IMG/VR virus record: IMGVR_UViG_3300042516_003420
Length of the DNA: 64,000 nucleotides
Direction: 5' to 3' (one strand)
Origin: an uncultured virus (IMG/VR IMGVR_UViG_3300042516_003420)
Lineage: Duplodnaviria; Heunggongvirae; Uroviricota; Caudoviricetes
How positions within the stretch are numbered: position 1 is the stretch's first letter; each line of letters starts with the position of its first letter. The notes beneath the pieces were generated by a model, which saw only the letters and a program-made list of their open reading frames with translations, did not search any database and had not been told where the DNA came from. The translations under genes and the position numbers were made by a program. This document shows positions 366 to 49,273 of the stretch, in pieces.

Positions 366-439
366 CGGGGATTAGCGCAGTTTGGTAGCGCATCTGCTTT
401 GGGAGCAGAGGGCCGCAGGTTCAAATCCTGCATCTCCGA
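366..439 (+). tRNA. tRNA-Pro(UGG)
   Basis: Acceptor CGGGGAT/ATCTCCG, D arm GCGCAGTTTGGTAGCGC, anticodon arm TCTGC-TTTGGGA-GCAGA, T loop GGTTCAAATCC; CCA not encoded. Confidence 0.97.
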
Positions 440-18957: not shown

Positions 18958-19248
18958 TTAGCTCCAGGCTTCGCGCTTCTCTTTGCGAGCTGCCTCGTGC
19001 ATCTCTGCCATGGTCAGCGGAGGTTCGCCAACTTCATCGATGTCATAATCAACATCAAGTTCATTCACAAGCATTGGAATGATCTCTTCCTCAAGTAATG
19101 CAGTCATACTTGGAGTAAGGTGTTGATCCATCTGATGACGTTTAGCTTCACGAGCCATGACATCTTGAAGGATGGTTAATGCTTGTTGTACGTACACGTA
19201 CTCATTCTGTTTCCAGTTAATGGATGGGTATTGAGTTGGAGTGTTCAT
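18958..19248 (-). CDS. Hypothetical protein
   Basis: Start MNTPTQ; C-terminal GEPPLTMAEMH. Confidence 0.65.
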   Translation of the reverse strand: MNTPTQYPSINWKQNEYVYVQQALTILQDVMAREAKRHQMDQHLTPSMTALLEEEIIPMLVNELDVDYDIDEVGEPPLTMAEMHEAARKEKREAWS

Positions 19249-19381
19249 TGTGATGAGAGGGTAGGTAGATGGAAGGTTATCTACTAATAAAAGGATTATT
19301 CCCTGGTACTCCCCTGCGGGGGTCTGGGGGGAATGCTTGGTATCTATCCAAGAGATTCCTCCTTCGGGATATAAGTAAAAC

Positions 19382-19633
19382 TTATGTGACGATAGGATCT
19401 TTGATGATCCAGGCGGTGTAATACTTGTTGGTTCGATCAACTGAAATAAGGTTGTATTCCTCCAGCTTGGCCAGTGCTTTAAGGTAGTCTGGCAATCTGG
19501 AAGTTTGTGTACCTACCCTTGGCACGAAGCATGGGTTATTGCCATGCCTCTTCTTGTGTGCCAAGTAGTAGGTGTATAGGTTGCGTTGATTGATTGTCAA
19601 CGAAGGCATACCGTTCTTGATTTGAGTAGACAT
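19382..19633 (-). CDS. Putative winged-helix DNA-binding protein
   Basis: LTINQRNLY...YLKALAKLEEYNLISVDR. Confidence 0.55.
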   Translation of the reverse strand: MSTQIKNGMPSLTINQRNLYTYYLAHKKRHGNNPCFVPRVGTQTSRLPDYLKALAKLEEYNLISVDRTNKYYTAWIIKDPIVT

Positions 19634-19989
19634 TAGATCAAGCCGAGAATCCTAAGCCAGCTGTCGGGGTGGTCTGGTTCAACTTCATCTTCTCCTGGTG
19701 TGAAGCAGGTGCTGTCGAACGTCCACTCTTCGATCTCTTCGTTGGTTGGGATGTCGTACCAACCTGTGAGTTCGTCCTTCTCTTCGGCTGTGTAGTTGTC
19801 TCCGGTTGGGATCCAGAAGCAACGCAGCACACCTCGCTTGTTCCTGTAGACGTTACCGGTGCAGACGATGGCGCCTTTGGGTGCGTCTTGGAAGTCTGGA
19901 TACGCTTGGTACTGCTGCTCTCCTTCTTCTGAACTGAGGGGTTCATAGCCGAAGGCTGAGGCGATTTCTTGAGTGACGGGGTGAAGCAT
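19633..19989 (-). CDS. Hypothetical cyanophage protein
   Basis: 118 aa ending EVEPDHPDSWLRILGLI; TAATG-coupled to the next gene. Confidence 0.7.
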   Translation of the reverse strand: MLHPVTQEIASAFGYEPLSSEEGEQQYQAYPDFQDAPKGAIVCTGNVYRNKRGVLRCFWIPTGDNYTAEEKDELTGWYDIPTNEEIEEWTFDSTCFTPGEDEVEPDHPDSWLRILGLI

Positions 19990-20055
19990 GAGATTAGTTC
20001 TGTGATGAGGATTGAGATGAGTGTGATGATGACAATGATGATGTCATCTTGATTG

Positions 20056-20193
20056 TTAGGTTTGGTCATCGTAAGGTTCCTGTTCGGTTGGGTTGAGTTC
20101 GTATTCTTCACGCATAGCTTGCTCCTGCTTATAGGCAATGTCTGCCATGGCATCAAGCAAGTCAGCGTTGTAGTTGGGGTCCAGTTGAGTCAT
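20056..20193 (-). CDS. Small acidic protein (45 aa, not in ORF track)
   Basis: MTQLDPNYNADLLDAMADIAYKQEQAMREEY...; follows pseudoknot copy 6. Confidence 0.6.
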   Translation of the reverse strand: MTQLDPNYNADLLDAMADIAYKQEQAMREEYELNPTEQEPYDDQT

Positions 20194-20213
20194 GGTTTGA
20201 ATTGATAAAAAGC

Positions 20214-20241
20214 TGAGCAGTTTAACGTCATACTCAGGACG
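20214..20241 (-). promoter_or_regulatory. H-type pseudoknot motif, copy 6
   Basis: Identical to copy 5. Confidence 0.85.
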
Positions 20242-20286
20242 GGGGTGAAGTCACCCCATTATGGAGTGGTAGATGATATGTATGTA

Positions 20287-20739
20287 CTACTTCACATCTT
20301 TCCAAGCAATGCCACGGGCGATGTTGGAGATAGCGCAACCGCTTACACCAAACTTCCTACCAATGAGATTGTAGAAATTGGTAATTGAACCACAAGATTT
20401 ACGGAGAGATTCATCAGATAAGATCATCCGAATCTCTTTGACCTTGTGGACATTAAGCTTGGACGGTCCATCCCATGAGCGGAAGTTACGCTTGGGATGA
20501 CGCTTGGTTGCGTCCTGTAGAGTTCCCTGCTCATACCTGGTCTCTATAACAGCCTTTACCTGTGGTGCTGGCTGTTGGAGTGGGGGCATGGGGGTCGAGC
20601 TACCAATGGAATCTCTAATGGGGAAACCAAGGGTTACGCTGGTGCCGTCCTTGATCACCGATACGGTGACCTTGCCATCCCTGGTAATCACAGAGACGTG
20701 ATCGGGGTGATGGACATCCAGTTGGCTGAGAGCTTCCAT
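20287..20739 (-). CDS. Protein with C-terminal HTH
   Basis: SKLN...VKEIR...IGRKFGVSGCAISNIARGIAWK. Confidence 0.7.
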   Translation of the reverse strand: MEALSQLDVHHPDHVSVITRDGKVTVSVIKDGTSVTLGFPIRDSIGSSTPMPPLQQPAPQVKAVIETRYEQGTLQDATKRHPKRNFRSWDGPSKLNVHKVKEIRMILSDESLRKSCGSITNFYNLIGRKFGVSGCAISNIARGIAWKDVK

Positions 20740-20823
20740 GAGTTGGAATGGAGTGCAGGTAGAGGATAGCTGGTACGTACAAAAATGCAAGTACCAGCTT
20801 TGGTGTCAGAGTTCCTAGGGACA

Positions 20824-21045
20824 CTAGGGGTGGGGTACGAAGTCAGAGTCGTGGATGAGTTGATGGACTGACAGGCAGTCCTCCATGATCTCATCTTTGG
20901 AGCTGCCCTCCCAGTCATCAGTCTGTTCTTCGATCACCTCGCAGCCAAGGTCTTCGAGTTGATCAACGAATTGATTCCAGGTACGTGCTTCGCTCCAGAT
21001 GTGGGCATAACGCCCAGTGCGATCAGCGACTAATGCGATGCGCAT
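20824..21045 (-). CDS. Hypothetical protein
   Basis: Start MRIALVAD. Confidence 0.6.
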   Translation of the reverse strand: MRIALVADRTGRYAHIWSEARTWNQFVDQLEDLGCEVIEEQTDDWEGSSKDEIMEDCLSVHQLIHDSDFVPHP

Positions 21046-21235
21046 CTTGGTTACTCCAAGTTTGTGGATTCGTGATGTCAACGCCAACCATTGCACCAGC
21101 TGTGAGTGCTGCAATAACAACTACAACAGTTGCCATAAAGAAGTTGGCGACACGATCACTGACTGTGACGTTGTGTTCTGGGTAGGAGTCAAGTTCTATA
21201 AACTTGTTGTTACCCAAGGGATAAGTACGTTTCAC
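21023..21235 (-). CDS. Small membrane protein
   Basis: GTG start; hydrophobic FFMATVVVVIAALTAGAMVGV. Confidence 0.55.
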   Translation of the reverse strand: MKRTYPLGNNKFIELDSYPEHNVTVSDRVANFFMATVVVVIAALTAGAMVGVDITNPQTWSNQDAHRISR

Positions 21236-21255
21236 GGTAGTTGAGATGTTGGATA

Positions 21256-21330
21256 GCAGGATGTTGAGTCCTGCAGAAAACCCACCATCGATACGAATTC
21301 GTATCAAAGGAAGGGTTAAGTGCAGAAGTC
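21256..21330 (-). promoter_or_regulatory. Intergenic long hairpin, family B copy 1
   Basis: TTCTGCA...TGCAGGA-CTCAACA-TCCTGC; shared with 21791-21855. Confidence 0.6.
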
Positions 21331-21338
21331 GGATGAAC

Positions 21339-21767
21339 TCAGAACTCAATAGGTTCCAGGGTAGGTTGTGCACCTGCTGCCTGTAGCTCTTGCTTGGGTG
21401 CAGGCTTACGACCAAACTCGTAATCCTTCACGATCAGCTGGATCTCAGGCCGCTTGAGTACCTGGAGATTGTTCTGTTCATCCATGTAGGTTGTACGAAT
21501 ACCATTGATCCGTCCATAGACACGAAGCTCTTGACCAACGACAAGATTGCCATTGGTAAAAGCTGTGTTGAGTCCGTTGTTATTCGTAAACGTGAGTGTG
21601 ACGCTGACCATGGAGTTCAAGTTGTGAATCATCTTCACAGCAATGAACTCACTGTTGTCTTCCTCGTTGACGAACTGCTTGATGAAAGCAATCCGTCCTT
21701 GGAATTGAACGTGTGATGAGTCAGCGTACTGCTTGAGACCGTTGGTGTCAGAGACAGGAGTAGTCAT
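21339..21767 (-). CDS. OB-fold (SSB-like) protein
   Basis: VQFQGRIA...GNLVVGQELRVYGRI; acidic end EPIEF. Confidence 0.55.
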   Translation of the reverse strand: MTTPVSDTNGLKQYADSSHVQFQGRIAFIKQFVNEEDNSEFIAVKMIHNLNSMVSVTLTFTNNNGLNTAFTNGNLVVGQELRVYGRINGIRTTYMDEQNNLQVLKRPEIQLIVKDYEFGRKPAPKQELQAAGAQPTLEPIEF

Positions 21768-21790
21768 TGAATTGAATTGAGTTGAATGTG

Positions 21791-21855
21791 TACAGGATGA
21801 TGAGTCCTGCAGTAACCCATCACTGGTAAATCAATGATGGGAAAGTGCAGAAATC
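21791..21855 (-). promoter_or_regulatory. Intergenic long hairpin, family B copy 2
   Basis: TTCTGCA...TGCAGGA-CTCATCA-TCCTGTA. Confidence 0.6.
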
Positions 21856-22039
21856 AATCACACATCAACTCTTGCTCCCACATCTGCTGCATCTCATGTT
21901 CGAGTTGAGCAGTGTGTTTCGCGATGGTGATGTACTTGTAGGCCTCACGTCGGTAATGACATTCCCGCATGAGTTCCTTCTGCATGCCTGGGTTGTTGGT
22001 ACAGATGTACCAGAGGTCTAGATTCTTGAATTGAATCAT
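21854..22039 (-). CDS. Hypothetical protein
   Basis: 61 aa ORF. Confidence 0.55.
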   Translation of the reverse strand: MIQFKNLDLWYICTNNPGMQKELMRECHYRREAYKYITIAKHTAQLEHEMQQMWEQELMCD

Positions 22040-22248
22040 TGTCCTGAAGTGAAGTGAGCTTTGTTGATGCAGTAGTACTGATCACCAAGGAAACCTTGGA
22101 CGTAGATCAGATTGTGATGGGGATGCTTGTGGCAGGTGGATTGGTAGTGCTTGTTCAGCATCTTCTGCCCTGCAACGGACAGAAGCATACCAATCCCTGT
22201 ACCCATCACGATTGCAAGTGTTGCATCAAACATGTAATGCTTGGTCAT
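22036..22248 (-). CDS. Small membrane-anchored protein
   Basis: Start MTKHYM; TM segment followed by a Cys pair. Confidence 0.6.
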   Translation of the reverse strand: MTKHYMFDATLAIVMGTGIGMLLSVAGQKMLNKHYQSTCHKHPHHNLIYVQGFLGDQYYCINKAHFTSGQ

Positions 22249-22267
22249 GACAGTTGAGCTGTGATAA

Positions 22268-22336
22268 GCCACCTGTGTTGGTGGCAATAGCTGGACCAGG
22301 GTTTGCACCTGGTCACCCGCTTGTACGGATCAGCTG
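22268..22336 (-). ncRNA. tRNA-elbow-like three-way junction element, copy 1
   Basis: AGCTG/CAGCT, CCG-TACAAG-CGG, GACCAGG-TGCAAAC-CCTGGTC, then ATT-GCCACC..GGTGGC. Confidence 0.7.
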
Positions 22337-22482
22337 TGAACCCGTTCCTCACTAATAAGGAAGCGTTCACCTTCCTCTGGTTCCTGGGCTTGTACGTATT
22401 TGTCAGCCGCTTGATGGCTAGCAAACACACCCATGAAGTGATCCTGGTACAGATCACAGAGGATAACAACGTAAACCGACAT
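22330..22482 (-). CDS. Small protein (50 aa, not in ORF track)
   Basis: AGGAG SD, then MSVYVVILCDLYQDHFMGVFASHQAADKY... Confidence 0.65.
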   Translation of the reverse strand: MSVYVVILCDLYQDHFMGVFASHQAADKYVQAQEPEEGERFLISEERVHS

Positions 22483-22563
22483 GGTTTACTCCTGTTGTGC
22501 GGTGCCCATCTCCGCTGAGGGCTAGGAGTTGTTTGGCAGGCTCGAGGCCTGTTGAGGGAACAA

Positions 22564-22719
22564 TCACCGTTTGATAGGTGGCATCTTTGGCATGATTGCA
22601 TTGGCGAGACCAACGCGTACAGCAAAGATTGTCTTACCAATGTTCTCCTTGCTCTTGTCATTCTCCAACACCTTGGCGGCGTTGATGAACTGTTTAGCAA
22701 CGGATGTACGGATGCCCAT
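22564..22719 (-). CDS. Small basic protein
   Basis: Start MGIRTSVAKQF. Confidence 0.55.
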   Translation of the reverse strand: MGIRTSVAKQFINAAKVLENDKSKENIGKTIFAVRVGLANAIMPKMPPIKR

Positions 22720-22740
22720 TGTGTTGACATGTGATGCGGT

Positions 22741-22810
22741 GCCTATCTCCGCTGGAGGCAATAACTGGAGGAAGGTTTGCACTTCCTCTCCCGCTTATAC
22801 GGATCAGTTG
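22741..22810 (-). ncRNA. tRNA-elbow-like three-way junction element, copy 2
   Basis: AACTG/CAGTT, CCG-TATAAG-CGG, GAGGAAG-TGCAAAC-CTTCCTC, then ATT-GCCT..AGGC. Confidence 0.7.
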
Positions 22811-23010
22811 GTTGAGTAGCCATTGTCTGCGCACCATTCCATGTGGATGTCATGGGCGTTTGCAGGCCAATCATGAGTAGCACATTGATGTGCTGTTGCT
22901 TGCTTTAGGTTGTGTAACGTCAACCAAGGTTGAGTAACAACAAAGTTGATAGCAATGATTGCAATCAGTCCTGTAATGAATGCGCAAGCTTTGATGTTGA
23001 GGTTGTCCAT
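22804..23010 (-). CDS. Small membrane-anchored protein, first gene of the early arm
   Basis: N-terminal TM; QC..HDWP...H..WC..NGY. Confidence 0.7.
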   Translation of the reverse strand: MDNLNIKACAFITGLIAIIAINFVVTQPWLTLHNLKQATAHQCATHDWPANAHDIHMEWCADNGYSTN

Positions 23011-23398
23011 GGAAATGAATTGAATAATTGATTCGTGAGAATCAAGGCTGTTTAGTGTAACTCCTGGTAACTGTGAAAGTTAACCGCTGAGTAACTCTTC
23101 TATACCGCAGCTCCTCGGGGGAGGGGCGAAACCTAATTTCAGGCGCGATATGAATTCGTATCACCGTGAAATTTAGGTGTGGAATGTGCGCGTATCATGA
23201 CATTTCGGTGTAAACAAAATGAATGCACCCCGCAATTCTTTTTTTTCTACCTGTATTCCTCGTCGCGTAGGGGGTGGGAGAAGAGTCAGGTAATTTTGCA
23301 CCCTATTGGGCCTGTATAGGAGGCCCCCTTCGCACAAAAACAAGGGTTTATTTTTAGTTTTTGTAATTATTTTCCCTAATTAGCCCAAAAAATTGGAC

Positions 23399-23425
23399 AA
23401 AAAAGCCGGGGTATTTAGCCCCGGC
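23399..23425 (-). terminator. Rho-independent terminator
   Basis: GCCGGGG-CTAAATA-CCCCGGC-TTTTTT after gene 23448-23663. Confidence 0.85.
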
Positions 23426-23447
23426 GTGTGCGTTGATCAGGTTTAAG

Positions 23448-23663
23448 TCAGAATCCTTCTTTTTGCCGCTTGTATGTCAGTGTTGCACGCGCTGCTTTTT
23501 GAAATGCGTTCTCATCTGGAAGCTCATATGCCAAAGTCTCCCTTGCATCCCTAACAAAACTACTGACCTCAAAGGAATCAGCACCTTTGGAAGCCATTTC
23601 CATTGCTTTATTTTTAATCGCCTCTAGTCCTTCGACTCTTTTTTGGCGGATTCCAGCATCCAT
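23448..23663 (-). CDS. Hypothetical protein
   Basis: 71 aa ORF with its own terminator. Confidence 0.7.
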   Translation of the reverse strand: MDAGIRQKRVEGLEAIKNKAMEMASKGADSFEVSSFVRDARETLAYELPDENAFQKAARATLTYKRQKEGF

Positions 23664-23764
23664 GTGGAACTAAAACCTGATCATCTATAAATATACAACC
23701 AGTAACCCTTAGGTTAGAACGGAATAGAATGTGAACAGACAAAAATATCAAGTTATAAATTTCA

Positions 23765-26056
23765 ATGGCTGTATCTCAGGCGGACTTCTACGCATTTAGC
23801 CAAGCCACTGGCGCCCCAGTGCCCGAAGATCCGGAAGCACGGGCCAGGATTGCGCCTCAGGTGATGGAATGGCGGCGAAATCAACTCAAGCAAGCCCCCC
23901 AACAGGAAGAAGGTCCCAACCTTGTCCAAACGATTGGTGGTTTAGCGGCTGCCGCAGGGGTAGGTACGTTGGCATTCCTGGGGGGAAGGCGTCTTGGTGG
24001 CGCAATGGCTGCCAGGAGAGGCGTACAACCCGTCAATGTGCAGGTCCAGGAGGAGGCAGTGCGGCGTGCAGCCCAACCCATCCCCCAACTGAGGGGTGTC
24101 ACCCAGGCAACCGGAGCCCAAACCGCGCGGCCGCCCAGTCCCCGGCCTCCCTCCCCAGTCACACCAGTCTCGGTTCGCGACATCACCCCTCCTTCAGCAC
24201 CTCCGAGGGGGCAACGTGGTCCTGGAATTGTTGATCCTTGGTCTGGTCCTGCGCCTACTTCGTATCGCGGACCATTATTTACGCCTGATCAAGAAACAAC
24301 CCAGTCATTAACCCAACTTCGCGACTTCCTTGGTACAAAAGGGCGTTTTCCTGAGACAACTAGCGAGTTTGAAGAAAATATTGCGTACAATCAACGCCTT
24401 GGTCTAGCACTTCCTGAGGTAGAAGAGGAATTTGTAGCTTATCGCCCGGATCCGCGTGAATCTGTGGCACGACAAGTGGCAGATGCCCGTCGTCAAGCAG
24501 CAACCGAGAATTTATTACGTGCAGCAGAGGCACGTCGCGATACATACCAGCCAGATCTCCCTGGTATCAAAGGAACATTGATGGCATTGCGTTCTCCTGC
24601 CGGTGTTTCGGCAGAAGAAGCTGGTGAGTTAGTAGCACAAGCAGAATCACGGCCATTATCTGCAGCACCGGCGCAAACAAACCTTTTCCAGTACGTCAAA
24701 CAAGCAGCAGAACCAGAAGGTGATGCGGTTGATCGTTTGCTTACCGAATACAACCAACTTGTTGAACGCCAAGCTCGTGCTGATCAACGTGCACAGTCTT
24801 CTGTTCGCGAATACAAAATGCAACTCCAGGGCAAAGCAATGCGCGTCCTGGATGACCTCAGGCAAGAGTCGTTGGTTGAAACACAGCAGTCCAAGATTCC
24901 TTTCAACGTTGATCAAGCAATCAACGCCCTGGATGCAAGTGAAGATCAAGCAACTGGTCGCGTGCGGCAACAGCTGCAACGCAATGAAGATCTTAACCTT
25001 GGTGTTATCGACCGCATTGAAGACAGCACCAACAACATCAACGTTGCTGCATCGATGACACCTGATGGTATTCCTGTGGATCAGGCTGAATCTGGTGGTC
25101 GCATCAACCAACTTGTTGAGCAAGGCAAACGCTACTTGCGGGCACAGGAAGTTGATCTTGATTTTGACTATGGCCCTGAGAACCGTCGCCAAGCAGCCCA
25201 GGTTAATGACCGACTTTCCCGTGCATTAGAGCTGAAGAACACAGCGGATCGTATTATTCAAGAAGAGCTGGCCACACCTTCCCCCGTGGAGATGGCGCGT
25301 GACGTTAGTGCGTCTGAACGTGCCCGCCTCAAGGCACAAGGCTTTGCTGGTCAAAAACTAGAGCAACAATTACTGGAGAACATGCGGGCAAACTTCCCTG
25401 AAGGTCGGGAGGTCATGGCACCGCTGCAGGAAGAAACCCGTCGCATTGAACGCACAGGTATGCCAAGTGCCCTTTCGGTTGTTGAAAATGTTGGCTCTGT
25501 AGCACCTCTTAAGCAAGGCGAAGAGCGCATTGGAAAACCTGCTTCTCAACAGGCTGGATATGAAGGCGGCATTCGTGGCATGGGTCGTATTACTCGTGAA
25601 GATCTAGAAGAAAGCTCAAAAACAATTATCAATGAACCTGTAATTCCTCTTAAACCAACACAGCAGTATGTTCGTGTTCCCCGCGCTGGTGGGATGGGCG
25701 TCTATGGTCTTGAATCGGCATTTGCCCCTGGTGCTATCCGAAAACTGGGTCAGTTTGGTGAATCAGAATATGGCGAGATCGGTTATGAGTATTCACCAGC
25801 GGCTGAGCGCCGTCCCACAGATCTCACTGGCAAGCCTGGGTTAGAAGAGCTGCGCAACCCATATTCTCGTTTATCGGATGAACAGCTGGGCGAACTGTCC
25901 ATGTACGGTAGTGATACCGACAAATACAACGCACAACAACAACTTAAGAGCCGGGCGTCTGTAGATGTCACCCGAGAGTTGCGCCGGTTACAATTATCAA
26001 ATGAGCCTGGTGCCGCAGAAAATTTCCTCACTCGTTTTAAACAAGGTTTGATCTGA
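23765..26056 (+). CDS. Large helical protein, putative internal virion protein
   Basis: 763 aa, Gln/Glu/Ala/Arg-rich with a Gly/Ala hydrophobic segment; first gene of the late arm. Confidence 0.6.
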   Translation: MAVSQADFYAFSQATGAPVPEDPEARARIAPQVMEWRRNQLKQAPQQEEGPNLVQTIGGLAAAAGVGTLAFLGGRRLGGAMAARRGVQPVNVQVQEEAVRRAAQPIPQLRGVTQATGAQTARPPSPRPPSPVTPVSVRDITPPSAPPRGQRGPGIVDPWSGPAPTSYRGPLFTPDQETTQSLTQLRDFLGTKGRFPETTSEFEENIAYNQRLGLALPEVEEEFVAYRPDPRESVARQVADARRQAATENLLRAAEARRDTYQPDLPGIKGTLMALRSPAGVSAEEAGELVAQAESRPLSAAPAQTNLFQYVKQAAEPEGDAVDRLLTEYNQLVERQARADQRAQSSVREYKMQLQGKAMRVLDDLRQESLVETQQSKIPFNVDQAINALDASEDQATGRVRQQLQRNEDLNLGVIDRIEDSTNNINVAASMTPDGIPVDQAESGGRINQLVEQGKRYLRAQEVDLDFDYGPENRRQAAQVNDRLSRALELKNTADRIIQEELATPSPVEMARDVSASERARLKAQGFAGQKLEQQLLENMRANFPEGREVMAPLQEETRRIERTGMPSALSVVENVGSVAPLKQGEERIGKPASQQAGYEGGIRGMGRITREDLEESSKTIINEPVIPLKPTQQYVRVPRAGGMGVYGLESAFAPGAIRKLGQFGESEYGEIGYEYSPAAERRPTDLTGKPGLEELRNPYSRLSDEQLGELSMYGSDTDKYNAQQQLKSRASVDVTRELRRLQLSNEPGAAENFLTRFKQGLI

Positions 26057-26277
26057 TGGCCGAACAGAAAAAGAAAAAAGAAAAGAAGTGGATTCAAGGC
26101 ATGGAGATGAAGGAAGGTGCCTTCACCGCCAAAGCCAAAAAGAAAGGAATTACTACTTCACAGCTTCAGGAGAATGTTCTTTCTAATCCTGAAAAGTATG
26201 ACGAAAAAACCGTCAAACAAGCTAACTTGCGTAAGACGTTAGTAGGATTACATAACAAGAAGAAAGCTAAAGGCTAA
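26056..26277 (+). CDS. Small Lys-rich protein
   Basis: KWIQ...KEGAFTAKAKK...ANLRKTL. Confidence 0.7.
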   Translation: MAEQKKKKEKKWIQGMEMKEGAFTAKAKKKGITTSQLQENVLSNPEKYDEKTVKQANLRKTLVGLHNKKKAKG

Positions 26278-26912
26278 TGGCAAAAGACCATCGGCTTGAC
26301 CTTGGCCGTTATGTTACCAACCCCTTTAACAAACAGGGTAATATCCGAGCCAACTTAGATTTCGATGAACTGTTTCGGGCAAAACCCGAGACAGGTGCTT
26401 ACCCCTGGAACCCATCTCGGTTTCAAGAGACGGACCTGCTAAAAAGAATGCAATCGCGGAAACGCATTCTTAACCCGGATCTAAACTTTGTATCTAACTT
26501 TCCCTTCTTTGGTACAAACACAGACAATGTTATTGATTACGAACTGTTTGAAGGCTTAGGACGGTTTAACCGTCCAGAAGAATATGACTTCAACGAAGGG
26601 CGTGCAATAACAAATCAGCGTCCACAAGATCAACCAGACTTCAACCCTGTTTGGGTTGATGCCTACCGTCTCAGCCCAACAGTGAATCCTGGCAAAGTTG
26701 CCAAGAATCCAATGCCTCGCATGAGGAACCCAGATCCCAACGGTTATCTGATGGCAGCTGCGGAGAAACGTGCAGAGAACGAAGTGGAAGGCAAGATGTC
26801 AATTGCTCAGCTCCTGGACCGCAAAGGAGTGATGAAACCTGTAGAGGTCAAAAAAGAAGAAGAGGAAGGAACCAAGATTGAAGAAGAGCCAAATCCTGGG
26901 CCACCAGGTTAA
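26277..26912 (+). CDS. Hypothetical protein
   Basis: 211 aa, TAATG-coupled. Confidence 0.7.
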   Translation: MAKDHRLDLGRYVTNPFNKQGNIRANLDFDELFRAKPETGAYPWNPSRFQETDLLKRMQSRKRILNPDLNFVSNFPFFGTNTDNVIDYELFEGLGRFNRPEEYDFNEGRAITNQRPQDQPDFNPVWVDAYRLSPTVNPGKVAKNPMPRMRNPDPNGYLMAAAEKRAENEVEGKMSIAQLLDRKGVMKPVEVKKEEEEGTKIEEEPNPGPPG

Positions 26913-26955
26913 TTAAAAATAGGAAGAATATAATACTTAAAAGGGCGCCAATAGA

Positions 26956-27570
26956 ATGATTAAACTTGCAGGCCAAGCATTACAAAAAATTCTTGGCTCA
27001 CGCATTGGCCAAGCCATGACGGCTCCTGCAACCAGGGAAGCGGCAAAGGCTTCTATTCCTGGTTCTGTATTAACGGCAGGTTTTACAGGATTAGCAGGCG
27101 GCGGCCTGGGAACTTCTTTGGCGACAGCTGGTTTAGATATGGGCCTGTCAACAGCAGGTGCACGCCTTGCTGGGAAAGTAACACCAGAAATGCTTTCCAG
27201 GGTAACCGGTAAACGCATCGGCAATCTCCTTGCAGGTTCTAAACCAGGTGAGATGTCTGTGCTGCAGAACATCGCAATGGGTACGGGCAGTGTTGGTGCA
27301 GCCCTGGCGACTGCTCCCATGCTGGCCAATGACCAGATTGCAGCATTATCTCAACAACAGCTGCAACAACTCATGGCCGAACCTGTGGTCATGGATCAAA
27401 CAGCAACAGCAGAACAACAGCTTCTCCAACGAGATTTAATTAATAACCTTCAAGGCGAAGCACTGTCTCCTGGCACCATGTTCCAGATGCAAGGCATTGA
27501 ATCCACTCTTGGACGCATTGATCCTTCTCTTGATCCTTACGGCATCATGCGCGGGGGAGCCCTGCGATGA
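26956..27570 (+). CDS. Gly/Ala/Gln-rich putative internal virion protein
   Basis: Composition and position. Confidence 0.55.
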   Translation: MIKLAGQALQKILGSRIGQAMTAPATREAAKASIPGSVLTAGFTGLAGGGLGTSLATAGLDMGLSTAGARLAGKVTPEMLSRVTGKRIGNLLAGSKPGEMSVLQNIAMGTGSVGAALATAPMLANDQIAALSQQQLQQLMAEPVVMDQTATAEQQLLQRDLINNLQGEALSPGTMFQMQGIESTLGRIDPSLDPYGIMRGGALR

Positions 27571-35503: not shown

Positions 35504-35797
35504 GTGGGTCCTGAATACGTTGCGTTGGCTTTAACGGCCATTGCGTCTGCACTCAGCGGTGGCACCTGGGTTGCCAATAAAATCTTAAGCCGACAAAGCC
35601 AAGATATTCAACAGGCCTTTAGTTACACCAACGCACAAAAGCGCAGGATTGACATCTTGGAAGATCAAATTAATCGCATGCCTTTGGACTATGTCTTAAA
35701 GGTTGACTTCTTAAGAGAAATTCAAGAAATGCATGATAACTTTCGCGAAATCAATAATAAGCTTGATAAACTAATGGAAAAGATTTTGTCCAAATGA
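35504..35797 (+). CDS. Membrane-anchored coiled-coil protein
   Basis: N-terminal TM; MPLDYVLKVDF...INNKLDKL. Confidence 0.6.
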   Translation: MGPEYVALALTAIASALSGGTWVANKILSRQSQDIQQAFSYTNAQKRRIDILEDQINRMPLDYVLKVDFLREIQEMHDNFREINNKLDKLMEKILSK

Positions 35798-35979
35798 GTT
35801 ACATCCTTGAAGTCGAAGAAGACGACAACGGTGATCTGTTCCTCACTTTCCCCGAAGACCTACTCGAAGAGATGGGATGGCGAGAAGGAGATATTTTGAA
35901 TTGGGATGTCCAGGGGGACGGGATTGTCCTGACTAAAGTAAATGACCCATTTGGGTACGAAGTAGAAGAATGCGAGTAA
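35794..35979 (+). CDS. AbrB/MazE/SpoVT-like DNA-binding protein
   Basis: GDLFLTFPEDLLEEMGWREGDILNW. Confidence 0.7.
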   Translation: MSYILEVEEDDNGDLFLTFPEDLLEEMGWREGDILNWDVQGDGIVLTKVNDPFGYEVEECE

Positions 35980-48904: not shown

Positions 48905-49273
48905 ATGTTCAATTGTGAGCAGGATCCGCTTTCCTTACTCATTGAATTAACTCCAAAGTTAGCAAAGAAACGTTATCGACAGTCCATCTACGAAGCCTGG
49001 GACTTTAAGTGTGCATATTGCAAGGCAGAGGCAACAAGCCTTGATCACATTATTCCTAGGTTCAAATCAGGTTCAAGCAATAGAAATAATCTGATTCCCG
49101 CGTGCAGATCGTGCAATACAAATAAAGCAAGCACTAAAATGGAAGACTGGTACTGCAATCAAGACTTCTTTGATGAAGTTCAGTACAATCGAATCAAGAC
49201 CTGGATGTCCCAGGAATTCATTGATTGGTTCCAGCCTGAGCATTTTGATCTTCATCCTAAAGTTGCCGTCTAA
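48905..49273 (+). CDS. HNH endonuclease
   Basis: CAYC...SLDHIIPRFKSG...NLIPACRSCN..K. Confidence 0.9.
   Translation: MFNCEQDPLSLLIELTPKLAKKRYRQSIYEAWDFKCAYCKAEATSLDHIIPRFKSGSSNRNNLIPACRSCNTNKASTKMEDWYCNQDFFDEVQYNRIKTWMSQEFIDWFQPEHFDLHPKVAV

What the first reader, a model, noticed from the sequence alone, without database searches (positions are those of the whole stretch)
22268..22810. Two tRNA-elbow-like three-way junction RNAs starting exactly at stop codons of the first early genes
Seen (minus strand): 22336-22268 CAGCTG-AT-CCG-TACAAG-CGG-GT-GACCAGG-TGCAAAC-CCTGGTC-CAGCT-ATT-GCC-hairpin, and 22810-22741 CAACTG-AT-CCG-TATAAG-CGG-GA-GAGGAAG-TGCAAAC-CTTCCTC-CAGTT-ATT-GCC-hairpin. The closing stem and the 7-bp stem differ in sequence but keep full pairing (five compensated pairs), while the loops are conserved. 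The 7-nt TGCAAAC loop resembles a tRNA T-loop. In both, the TGA of the upstream ORF sits at the junction of the 5' closing strand and the following linker. Inference: an anticodon-less tRNA mimic acting as an RNase P/Z processing signal, an antitermination element (put/nut-like, fitting its place at the start of a ~20 kb arm), or a decoy for tRNA-targeting defences.
Basis: partly seen in the sequence, partly recalled or inferred. Interest (0 to 1): 0.8.

Follow-up and report, generated by a model that had tools for sequence, protein, structure and literature searches.

The report
Anticodon-less tRNA mimic punctuating cyanophage early genes
Between the first small genes of this S-EIV1-type cyanophage sits a conserved, uncatalogued ~55-base RNA that copies the top half of a tRNA and carries the stop codon of the gene before it, most likely a signal telling host tRNA-trimming enzymes where to cut the long early message.

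Summary
The two copies (minus strand, 22811-22757 and 22337-22283) belong to a large RNA family that has no Rfam match. I found it in the isolate Synechococcus phage S-EIV1, in 5 of 5 near-complete relatives (1-4 clustered copies each), and in over 120 loci in each of the viral and metagenome collections.

All three helices covary: 98% of cells are paired and 13 of 16 pairs change on both sides.

The fold is a tRNA top half:
- a 5-bp acceptor-like stem stacked directly on a 7-bp T-like arm, 12 bp in all;
- a 7-nt loop reading U-(G/U)-C-R-A-N-N, with canonical UUCGAUU in rare copies;
- a small D-arm substitute whose loop covaries with the T-loop as tRNA G19:C56 and G18:psi55 do;
- then an unpaired A, UU, and a GCC-initiated hairpin or a covarying H-type pseudoknot before the next start codon.

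A stop codon sits at the end of the 5' closing strand in 138 of 139 and 142 of 147 instances. It ends a real upstream ORF in about 87% of them.

Function is inferred, not shown. The best guess (about 0.4) is a cis signal for host RNase Z/P that punctuates the early polycistronic mRNA. No RNA data were available.

The parts
22757..22811 (-). tRNA-like element (TLS), copy A. P1 22809-22805 pairs with 22767-22763. P2 22802-22799 pairs with 22794-22791, loop 22798-22795. P3 (T-like arm) 22788-22782 pairs with 22774-22768, loop UGCAAAC 22781-22775. Unpaired A at 22762, UU at 22761-22760.
   Evidence: (77.0 bits)
22804..22806 (-). UGA stop codon of ORF 23010->22804 (68 aa), embedded in P1 and J1/2 of copy A
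22736..22759 (-). H-type pseudoknot after copy A. S1 GCCU 22759-22756 pairs with AGGC 22744-22741. S2 GCGG 22752-22749 pairs with CCGC 22739-22736. The next gene's ATG is at 22719-22717.
22283..22337 (-). tRNA-like element (TLS), copy B. P1 22335-22331 pairs with 22293-22289. P2 22328-22325 pairs with 22320-22317. P3 22314-22308 pairs with 22300-22294, loop UGCAAAC 22307-22301. Unpaired A at 22288, UU at 22287-22286.
   Evidence: (82.9 bits)
22330..22332 (-). UGA stop codon of ORF 22482->22330 (50 aa), embedded in P1 and J1/2 of copy B
22268..22285 (-). GCC-initiated hairpin after copy B (GCCACC-AACACA-GGUGGC). The next gene's ATG is at 22248-22246.
22499..22522 (-). Stand-alone copy of the same pseudoknot module, with no TLS before it (GCCC-UCA-GCGG-AGAU-GGGC-A-CCGC), 17 nt upstream of ATG 22482
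   Evidence: (D2)
22246..23010 (-). The stretch that holds the elements: the first three small ORFs of the minus-strand (replication/early) arm and the start of the fourth (23010-22804, 22719-22564, 22482-22330, and the ORF starting at 22248). It lies downstream of an intrinsic terminator at 23425-23405 and a ~390-nt AT-rich spacer.

Best explanation
The element is a cis-acting RNA within the early polycistronic mRNA that mimics the acceptor/T-arm 'top half' and elbow of a tRNA. It has no anticodon arm.

Shown:
- the fold;
- the 12-bp coaxial stack (5 + 7);
- the T-loop signature;
- elbow-type tertiary covariation;
- an unpaired A followed by UU;
- a structured GCC-module before the next ribosome-binding site;
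- the embedded stop codon.

Inferred: host tRNA end-processing enzymes read the element as a pre-tRNA. RNase Z would cut after the discriminator-like A. The upstream cistron would then end in a compact tRNA-like 3' cap that contains its own stop codon. The downstream cistron would start two bases before a hairpin or pseudoknot that shields its 5' end.

RNase P could also cut at the 5' edge of P1. That cut falls one sense codon before the stop and would yield a non-stop upstream message, a possible shut-off route. Because the stop codon lies in P1, a terminating ribosome must melt P1 and P2, so translation of the upstream gene and recognition of the element would exclude each other. The phage encodes no recognisable RNase or RNA polymerase, so host enzymes would do the work.
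For: Family and fold:
- No Rfam match.
- 166 matches in 81 sources and 147 matches in 80 sources.
- 13 of 16 pairs covary.
- RNAalifold predicts the same fold.

tRNA top-half features:
- Loop positions across 119 distinct sequences: U 119, G 117/U 2, C 118, A 116/G 3, A 119. The closing pair is G-C in 118.
- Canonical UUCGAUU, UUCAAUG and UUCGACU loops occur in diverged copies.
- P3 runs straight into the P1 3' strand, giving 7 + 5 = 12 bp.

Elbow (228 parsable of 247 unique elements):
- The last base of the P2 loop is G when T-loop base 3 is C (226), and A when it is U (2). There is no exception.
- The penultimate base is A or C when T-loop base 2 is G (222), and G when it is U (5). There is one exception.
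- Six copies without P2 carry a UGGUG or AGGUG linker together with a UUCGAYU loop.

3' side:
- The discriminator position is A in 100 of 119; the next two bases are U in 117 and 118 of 119.
- RNase Z cuts directly after the discriminator and is suppressed by C's there (PMC7479834, passages read).
- A GCC/ACC structure follows in 128 of 135 unique downstream sequences: 61 pseudoknots, 38 long hairpins and 29 five-bp hairpins.
- The pseudoknot stems covary.

Stop codon:
- Present in 138 of 139 and 142 of 147 instances.
- Ends an ORF of at least 30 codons in 119 of 138 and 113 of 129, against 49/19 and 38/16 in the other two frames.
- UGA changes to UAA together with a compensating C-to-U in P1.

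Context:
- Copies are clustered on one strand at the head of the replication arm.
- No phage RNase or RNA polymerase was found.

Precedent: plant-mitochondrial t-elements direct RNase P/Z cuts at mRNA ends, including cuts inside reading frames (PMC1920247, passages read).

Weak hint: the window's two CCA-less tRNA genes are followed by TATTGCT, like the TLS 'T-TATTGCC'.
Against: - No cleavage, RNA end or small RNA has been observed.
- The base at -1 is not enriched for U (C 56, A 35, U 19, G 9 of 119), so nothing points specifically to RNase P.
- An RNase P cut would remove the stop codon, which seems wasteful unless shut-off is the aim.
- The acceptor-like stem is only 5 bp, and its first pair is unpaired in 23 of 119. 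A seven-bp acceptor stem is called a major RNase P determinant in PMC4201824 (passages read).
- T-loop base 2 is G, not U, in 98% of copies.
- A stable stem only 3 nt past P1 might hinder rather than help RNase Z.
- The near-invariance of the loops could instead reflect a dedicated protein partner.
- The processing model does not by itself require the stop-codon overlap.
Confidence: 0.4

Rival explanations
1. The same tRNA-like fold works without being cut. It would be a compact 3' barrier and translation-linked stability element between cistrons. It blocks 3'-to-5' exonucleases and leaves no naked RNA between the terminating ribosome and the structure, while the GCC hairpin or pseudoknot organises the next ribosome-binding site.
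For: The stop codon abuts or overlaps the structure in about 87% of instances, so no untranslated gap exists. Both modules are stable and GC-rich. The pseudoknot also occurs without the TLS directly before a start codon (window 22522-22499).
Against: A simple stability hairpin would not need a T-loop signature, a 12-bp stack, or elbow-type tertiary covariation. Nor would it need an invariant A-UU single-stranded joint.
Confidence: 0.2
2. The element is excised (or acts in place) as an abundant early tRNA-top-half decoy or sponge. It would bind a host or phage protein that recognises the tRNA elbow or acceptor end, for example a defence nuclease or nucleotidyltransferase, the CCA-adding enzyme, or a modification enzyme.
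For: The mimicry of the elbow is faithful, down to covarying tertiary pairs. The loop sequences are extremely conserved (UGCAAAC in 99 of 119), as expected for a specific partner. There are 1-4 copies in the very first transcribed genes.
Against: There is no anticodon arm, so anticodon nucleases cannot be the target. A trans-acting decoy gives no reason for the stop-codon phasing or for the fixed joint to the next gene's leader. No candidate partner gene was recognised in the window.
Confidence: 0.15
3. The element mainly serves genome plasticity. As a conserved linker repeated between small early genes, it would be a site of homologous exchange that shuffles gene cassettes, in the manner of PeSL. 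Alternatively it is a small mobile repeat.
For: The same downstream gene cluster follows up to 8 different upstream gene clusters, and one upstream cluster precedes 15 different downstream clusters. Metagenome contigs often break near the element.
Against: Compensatory changes in three helices and two tertiary pairs show selection on an RNA fold. Copies are confined to one cluster and one strand, 1-4 per genome, not dispersed. No sigma-70-like promoter was found in the region, so it is not a promoter-stem-loop cassette. Only 2 cellular contigs hold it, both MAG contigs.
Confidence: 0.1
4. It is a put/nut-like processive antitermination RNA that modifies host RNA polymerase at the start of the early arm.
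For: It lies near the start of a ~22-kb transcription arm, and an intrinsic terminator lies just upstream of the operon.
Against: It follows ORFs rather than the promoter, is repeated up to four times, overlaps stop codons so ribosomes unfold it, and is built as a tRNA mimic. No terminator-like site was found just downstream of either copy in the scanned 21500-23900.
Confidence: 0.05

Closest known systems
Plant-mitochondrial t-elements (Forner et al. 2007, PMC1920247; passages read)
   Same: Both are tRNA-like structures inside mRNAs that have a T-arm and an acceptor-like stem but are not tRNAs. They lie at cistron borders and sometimes overlap the 3' end of a reading frame. They are proposed, and partly shown, to direct RNase P and RNase Z cuts that make mRNA ends.
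   Different: t-elements are degenerate cloverleaves recognised by the canonical GGTTCRANYCC motif in organelle genomes. The phage element is a 55-nt three-way junction with no anticodon arm, a 5/7 instead of 7/5 stem split, mostly UGCAAAC instead of UUCRANY, a fixed embedded stop codon and a fixed downstream hairpin or pseudoknot. Cleavage has not been shown for it.
mascRNA / MALAT1 and MEN-beta tRNA-like 3' elements, and the mitochondrial tRNA punctuation model (recalled, not read here)
   Same: A tRNA-like fold in a long transcript is cut by RNase P and RNase Z to define the ends of the flanking RNAs.
   Different: These are eukaryotic and have full cloverleaf-like folds. There is no match to any Rfam family, mascRNA included, at E up to 10. 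No translation stop is involved.
Bacterial and phage YrlA Y RNAs (Chen et al. 2014, PMC4201824; passages read)
   Same: A non-tRNA that mimics the D arm, T arm and acceptor stem, including the tertiary contacts. It is found in phages too, and one member is cut by RNase P and receives CCA.
   Different: YrlA is a stand-alone non-coding RNA encoded next to Ro60 and carries a Ro-binding helix. The element here lies inside an mRNA between ORFs, has no Ro-binding module and no Rfam hit.
tmRNA tRNA-like domain
   Same: An acceptor stem plus a T arm, with a reduced D analogue and no anticodon arm.
   Different: tmRNA has a free CCA end, a G3:U70 alanine identity pair and a tag reading frame. The element has UU after the discriminator and C-G (or U-A, G-C) at the third pair. 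ARAGORN calls neither a tRNA nor a tmRNA there.
PeSL promoter-early-stem-loop cassettes of T4-type phages (recalled; also named in an earlier finding, e1-6077219)
   Same: A conserved intergenic repeat between small early genes in a mosaic region, with gene neighbours shuffled at the repeat.
   Different: PeSLs are DNA promoter plus terminator-like stem units. Here no promoter-like site was found, and selection is on a three-helix RNA fold with tertiary pairs.

Membership tests
Genuine tRNA (Rfam RF00005; ARAGORN) | Cloverleaf with an anticodon arm, recognised by tRNA models | tested here: not met
   ARAGORN finds only 3 tRNAs elsewhere in the window. Rfam at the gathering threshold and at E up to 10 over 21800-23400 gives no tRNA hit at the element. 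Only 2 nt separate P2 from P3.
tRNA top-half (acceptor/T minihelix plus elbow) mimic | 7-nt T-loop reading U-N-C-R-A-N-N, closed by G-C | tested here: met
   Of 119 distinct sequences: U 119, G 117/U 2, C 118, A 116/G 3, A 119. The closing pair is G-C in 118. Canonical UUCGAUU and UUCGACU variants occur.
tRNA top-half (acceptor/T minihelix plus elbow) mimic | 12-bp coaxial acceptor + T helix, with the 3' strands contiguous | tested here: met
   P3 (7 bp) is followed directly by the P1 3' strand (5 bp) in the alignments. The split is 5/7, not 7/5. The first P1 pair is unpaired in 23 of 119.
tRNA top-half (acceptor/T minihelix plus elbow) mimic | D-loop/T-loop tertiary pairs (G19:C56, G18:psi55) | tested here: met
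   By covariation only, in 228 parsable of 247 unique elements: G:C 226 and A:U 2 with no exception; A/C:G 222, G:U 5, A:U 1. Six P2-less copies carry a GG linker with a UUCGAYU loop. No 3D model or probing. The A that pairs with U could also pair with the U on the other side of the P2 loop.
tRNA top-half (acceptor/T minihelix plus elbow) mimic | Unpaired discriminator followed by a non-CCA, non-C trailer (an RNase Z-type precursor) | tested here: met
   A in 100 of 119, then U in 117 and U in 118 of 119. The rule that C's after the discriminator suppress RNase Z comes from PMC7479834 (passages read).
t-element / tRNA punctuation signal | Mapped RNA ends coincide with the element borders; cut by RNase P and/or RNase Z | not testable with these tools
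   No RNA run was listed for the window.
YrlA / Y RNA | Ro60-binding helix and a neighbouring Ro60 (TROVE) gene | tested here: not met
   No Rfam hit. No TROVE domain among the 96 ORFs scanned against Pfam.
PeSL cassette | Early sigma-70 promoter joined to a stem-loop | tested here: not met
   0 promoter-like sites in 21500-23900, against 3.4 expected in shuffles. The scan uses the E. coli-type consensus only.
HK022 put-type antiterminator RNA | Two stem-loops directly downstream of an early promoter that act on RNA polymerase | not tested
   The anatomy differs: a three-way junction that follows ORFs and is repeated. No functional assay.
Bacterial SECIS / stop-codon recoding signal | UGA specifically, with an open frame continuing past it | tested here: not met
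   UAA replaces UGA in 5 of 139 and 2 of 147 instances. In copy A, a TAA follows three codons after the TGA.

The most novel reading that the evidence does not exclude
S-EIV1-type cyanophages run a 'tRNA punctuation' system of their own. A minimal tRNA elbow mimic, with the upstream gene's stop codon built into its acceptor-like stem, would couple translation termination to cleavage by host RNase Z/P. Each early cistron would then be released with a tRNA-like 3' cap, or be stripped of its stop codon and shut off, while the next cistron starts at a protective pseudoknot. To my knowledge this would be the first punctuation-type mRNA processing code described for a bacteriophage, and a new, very small class of elbow mimic.
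Probability: 0.35. Interest if true: 0.8.

Novelty: new variant of a known kind. Interest (0 to 1): 0.74.

Why it matters
tRNA-like signals that punctuate long transcripts are textbook for mitochondria and for a few eukaryotic long non-coding RNAs. I found none described for phage or bacterial mRNAs in my searches (Rfam).

This is a compact 55-nt family found in hundreds of environmental contigs and in a cultured phage-host pair (S-EIV1 and Synechococcus PCCC-A2c). Its helices and tertiary contacts are already defined by covariation.

The family offers three things:
- a directly testable model of how a phage without its own RNA polymerase or RNases organises early gene expression in a host that lacks Rho (recalled);
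- a minimal natural tRNA-elbow mimic for structural work on RNase P, RNase Z and CCA-enzyme recognition;
- an unexplained rule that needs a mechanism: the stop codon is built into the acceptor-like stem in more than 95% of copies.

The accompanying pseudoknot is a second uncatalogued motif.

Tried and rejected
- RNA evidence: a search for sequencing runs holding window 19000-27000 listed no RNA holder. This is no evidence either way.
- Nearest held record: G001, a 43.7-kb fragment, has no copy. It is probably the wrong part of the genome, so this is uninformative.
- Loop-tail pseudoknot: I considered pairing between T-like loop GCAA and tail UUGC, and rejected it. The tail G is A in 26 of 119 while the loop C stays. 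That G/A instead covaries with the 3' strand of the downstream stem.
- Known ribozymes and riboswitches (hammerhead, pistol, twister, HDV-like, purine-like three-way junction): no Rfam hit. The junctions are only 1-2 nt, and the element is repeated after unrelated ORFs.
- Selenocysteine or read-through signal: rejected, because UAA variants exist and the downstream frame is not consistently open.
- Promoter inside the module: no consensus match.
- IS200/IS605-like ssDNA hairpin ends (the TTGAT target resemblance is recalled): not pursued. The clustered, single-strand, syntenic placement and the tRNA-type covariation argue against it.
- Real tRNA genes beside the elements in relatives: ARAGORN found none in 126 loci apart from one doubtful call.
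- Supplement search of PMC10690425 (10,006 predicted viral structured RNAs) for the loop motif: nothing found in 6 files, but 3 files could not be searched. The motif may be among those unnamed predictions.
- Earlier findings of this scan: nothing for this genome or sequence.
- Pellegrini et al. 2003 on RNase Z could not be read. The statement that a U after the cut is favoured is therefore recalled only.
Full report
**What is there.**
The window is an S-EIV1-like cyanophage. The only GenBank phage with DNA similarity is Synechococcus phage S-EIV1 (69% identity over 11% of a 3-kb query). Genes run leftward from about 23,000 and rightward from 23,765.
- The leftward arm holds replication genes: family A DNA polymerase, SSB, ThyX and a gp88-like protein.
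- The rightward arm holds structural and lysis genes: terminase, major head protein, lysozyme and a tail fibre.
- No phage RNA polymerase or RNase was recognised.

On the minus strand, an intrinsic terminator (23425-23405) and a ~390-nt AT-rich spacer precede a run of tiny ORFs. The two elements follow the first ORF (23010-22804, 68 aa) and the third ORF (22482-22330, 50 aa). That this arm is 'early' is inferred from gene content and layout, not from expression data.

**Check of the observation.**
The two copies form a 58-nt direct repeat, 81% identical. Each folds into the proposed three-way junction as its minimum-free-energy structure. The 56-nt cores give z = -3.30 and -2.94. The covariance model R1 scores them at 82.9 and 77.0 bits, and nothing else in the 64 kb exceeds 12.9 bits with filters off.

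Between the two window copies I count four compensated pairs, not five.

**Relatives.**
- A 15-base core pattern hit 122 viral loci. Of 127 matches, 39 had the TGCAAAC loop in place. These gave 35 distinct 95-nt sequences.
It found only two cellular records, both MAG contigs.
- All 5 near-complete relatives searched (72-86 kb) carry 1-4 copies, clustered within about 1.2 kb on one strand.
- The isolate S-EIV1 carries two copies. Its annotated CDS at locus L134 4271..4507 ends exactly at the element's UGA.
- R1 found 166 matches in 81 sources and 147 matches in 80 metagenome loci.
- Rfam 15 has no family for it, either at the gathering threshold over the whole window or at E up to 10 over 21800-23400.

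**Secondary structure.**
In 35 sequences, 98.0% of cells pair against 82.3% in shuffles, and 11 of 20 pairs change on both sides.

In 119 distinct sequences of the model-fitted alignment, 98.1% pair against 75.8% in shuffles (0 of 500 shuffles reach it) and 38-51% with slid partners. Of 16 pairs, 13 change on both sides, including 2 of 4 in P2, which the first search pattern had held fixed. That alignment is fitted to the model and so leans towards it. However, RNAalifold on the plain MAFFT alignment predicts the same junction.

**Why it is a tRNA top half.**
1. The 7-nt loop follows the T-loop rule in every distinct sequence and is closed by G-C. Rare copies have the canonical UUCGAUU, UUCAAUG or UUCGACU.
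2. The 7-bp stem runs without a break into the 3' strand of the 5-bp closing stem, making a 12-bp stack. That is the length of the tRNA acceptor/T branch. tRNAs with 8/4 and 9/3 splits of the same 12 bp are known (PMC5389517, abstract seen in the listing).
3. Tertiary covariation (228 parsable of 247 unique elements, the 19 unparsed ones are listed in that call).
   - The last base of the P2 loop is G when T-loop base 3 is C (226), and A when it is U (2), with no exception.
   - The penultimate base is A or C when T-loop base 2 is G (222), and G when it is U (5), with one exception.
   - Six copies that lack P2 have a UGGUG or AGGUG linker with a UUCGAYU loop.
   - These are the positions and partners of tRNA G19:C56 and G18:psi55. 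The numbers count sequences, not independent events. In the two A:U cases the A could also pair with the U across the P2 loop.
4. After P1 comes one unpaired base (A in 100 of 119), then UU (117 and 118 of 119).

**The stop codon.**
A stop codon occupies the last two bases of the 5' strand of P1 plus the first junction base.
- Viral set: 138 of 139 context-unique instances (TGA 132, TAA 5, TAG 1).
- Metagenome set: 142 of 147 (TGA 140, TAA 2).

It closes an open frame of at least 30 codons in 119 of 138 and 113 of 129 instances. The other two frames do so in 49 and 19, and in 38 and 16. An earlier, smaller count gave 46 of 52.

Where UGA becomes UAA, the partner C usually becomes U. The three outer P1 pairs vary freely. 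The two pairs that carry U and G/A do not, apart from a subfamily shifted by one base. So termination at this exact place is a conserved part of the design.

In several of the exceptions another stop lies a few bases upstream.

**Downstream module.**
Three bases after P1 a stem starts with GCC or ACC. Of 135 unique downstream sequences:
- 61 are an H-type pseudoknot, RCCY-N3-GYRG-AGAU-RGGY-A-CYRC;
- 38 are a hairpin of at least 6 bp;
- 29 are a 5-bp GCCAC...GUGGC hairpin (counted by eye within the 36 'other');
- 7 are something else.

Both pseudoknot stems covary.
- S2 types include GCGG/CCGC, GUGG/CCAC, GCAG/CUGC, CAGG/CCUG and AGGG/CCCU.
- S1 types include GCCC/GGGC, GCCU/AGGC and ACCC/GGGU.
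- S2 is 90% paired in 144 anchor-selected windows, against 25-48% with slid partners and at most 79% in 500 shuffles.

The same pseudoknot stands alone at 22522-22499, before the ORF starting at 22482. The next start codon follows within a few tens of bases. My automatic start-finder sometimes picked an AUG inside the pseudoknot, so its distance percentiles are not reliable.

**Mechanism.**
Shown: the fold, its tRNA-type features, the stop-codon rule, the A-UU joint, the downstream structures and the clustered early placement.

Inferred: host RNase Z cuts after the unpaired A. RNase Z cleaves directly after the discriminator and is suppressed by C's there (PMC7479834, passages read). A cyanobacterial RNase Z study is cited in that paper but I did not read it. 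The cut would give the upstream cistron a tRNA-like 3' cap and start the downstream cistron just before a protective stem.

RNase P could cut at the 5' edge of P1, one sense codon before the stop, making a non-stop message. Plant t-elements do produce frame-internal mRNA 3' ends in this way (PMC1920247, passages read).

Because the stop lies in P1, a terminating ribosome must open P1 and P2. Translation and recognition would therefore compete. This step is pure inference.

A weak hint of shared 3' processing: the window's two CCA-less tRNA genes are followed by TATTGCT, resembling the element's T-TATTGCC. This is n = 2, and the first case overlaps the next tRNA.

**Evidence against, and rivals.**
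- Nothing shows cleavage.
- The -1 base is not U-rich.
- The acceptor-like stem is short.
- T-loop base 2 is G.
- The stop-codon rule is not demanded by processing alone.
- Gene neighbours are strongly reshuffled at the element: one downstream cluster has 8 upstream partners, and one upstream cluster has 15 downstream partners. The repeat may therefore also act as a recombination linker.
- A stability-only role, a decoy role and antitermination are weighed in the Rival explanations section.

**Literature.**
Searches on S-EIV1, tRNA-like elements in phages and cyanophages, tRNA mimics and RNase P in cyanobacteria found no description of this element. A 2023 catalogue of 10,006 predicted viral structured RNAs may contain it unnamed. 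Its supplements could be searched only in part.

An earlier finding of this scan (e1-5897476) proposes a similar 'cut or protect' role for a different hairpin after stop codons in mycobacteriophage-like viruses. It is an unchecked lead, not support.

**Verdict.**
This is a real, widespread, uncatalogued RNA family: a minimal tRNA elbow/top-half mimic with an embedded stop codon, coupled to a hairpin or pseudoknot leader module. Its structure is established by covariation. Its function remains inferred, and the lead hypothesis is host RNase Z/P punctuation of early mRNA.

Noticed in passing
window 22499-22522 (-), and after many elements in relatives (e.g. L155, L163, L175): A second uncatalogued motif: a small H-type pseudoknot, RCCY-N3-GYRG-AGAU-RGGY-A-CYRC-AC, lying 10-25 nt before start codons. 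Both stems covary. It occurs with and without the tRNA-like element.
   Followed up: partly
window 23147-23162 and 21290-21305: A 16-bp palindrome, GATA(T/C)GAATTCGTATC, occurs twice. One copy is in the spacer upstream of the first early ORF and one is about 1.9 kb into the arm. It looks like an operator for a dimeric regulator (D3, I3).
   Followed up: no
window 366-439, 444-515 and flanks: tRNA-Pro and tRNA-Thr lack an encoded CCA, and each is followed by TATTGCT. tRNA-Leu (15790-15705) and the tRNA-Leu(UAA) genes of three relatives have an encoded CCA.
   Followed up: partly
loci L137-L216 (relatives): Gene order around the element is mosaic. The same downstream gene family follows up to 8 different upstream families, and one upstream family precedes 15 downstream families.
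   Followed up: partly
relatives, e.g. L155:695-749 downstream, L150, L159: Leaders of a conserved gene (V/M-IDLTTGW...) read ACAGGAG-NNN-CCUGUG. The Shine-Dalgarno sequence and the GUG start can therefore pair with each other in a small hairpin (output).
   Followed up: no
window 23405-23425 (-): A strong intrinsic terminator (7 G-C pairs, then TTTTTTG) ends the 71-aa ORF 23663-23448, just upstream of the early operon.
   Followed up: no
L295:644-690, L335:112-158, L314:179-225, L294:758-804, L302:113-159, L324:671-717: A 47-nt minimal subfamily has no P2 hairpin. It consists of a 5-bp stem, a (U/A)GGUGNA linker and a 7-bp stem with a canonical UUCGAYU loop. It still carries the UGA and the AUUGCC tail.
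   Followed up: partly
window 35794-35976 (+) and 48905-49270 (+): A MazE/AbrB-type antitoxin-like ORF and an HNH endonuclease ORF sit among the structural genes.
   Followed up: no
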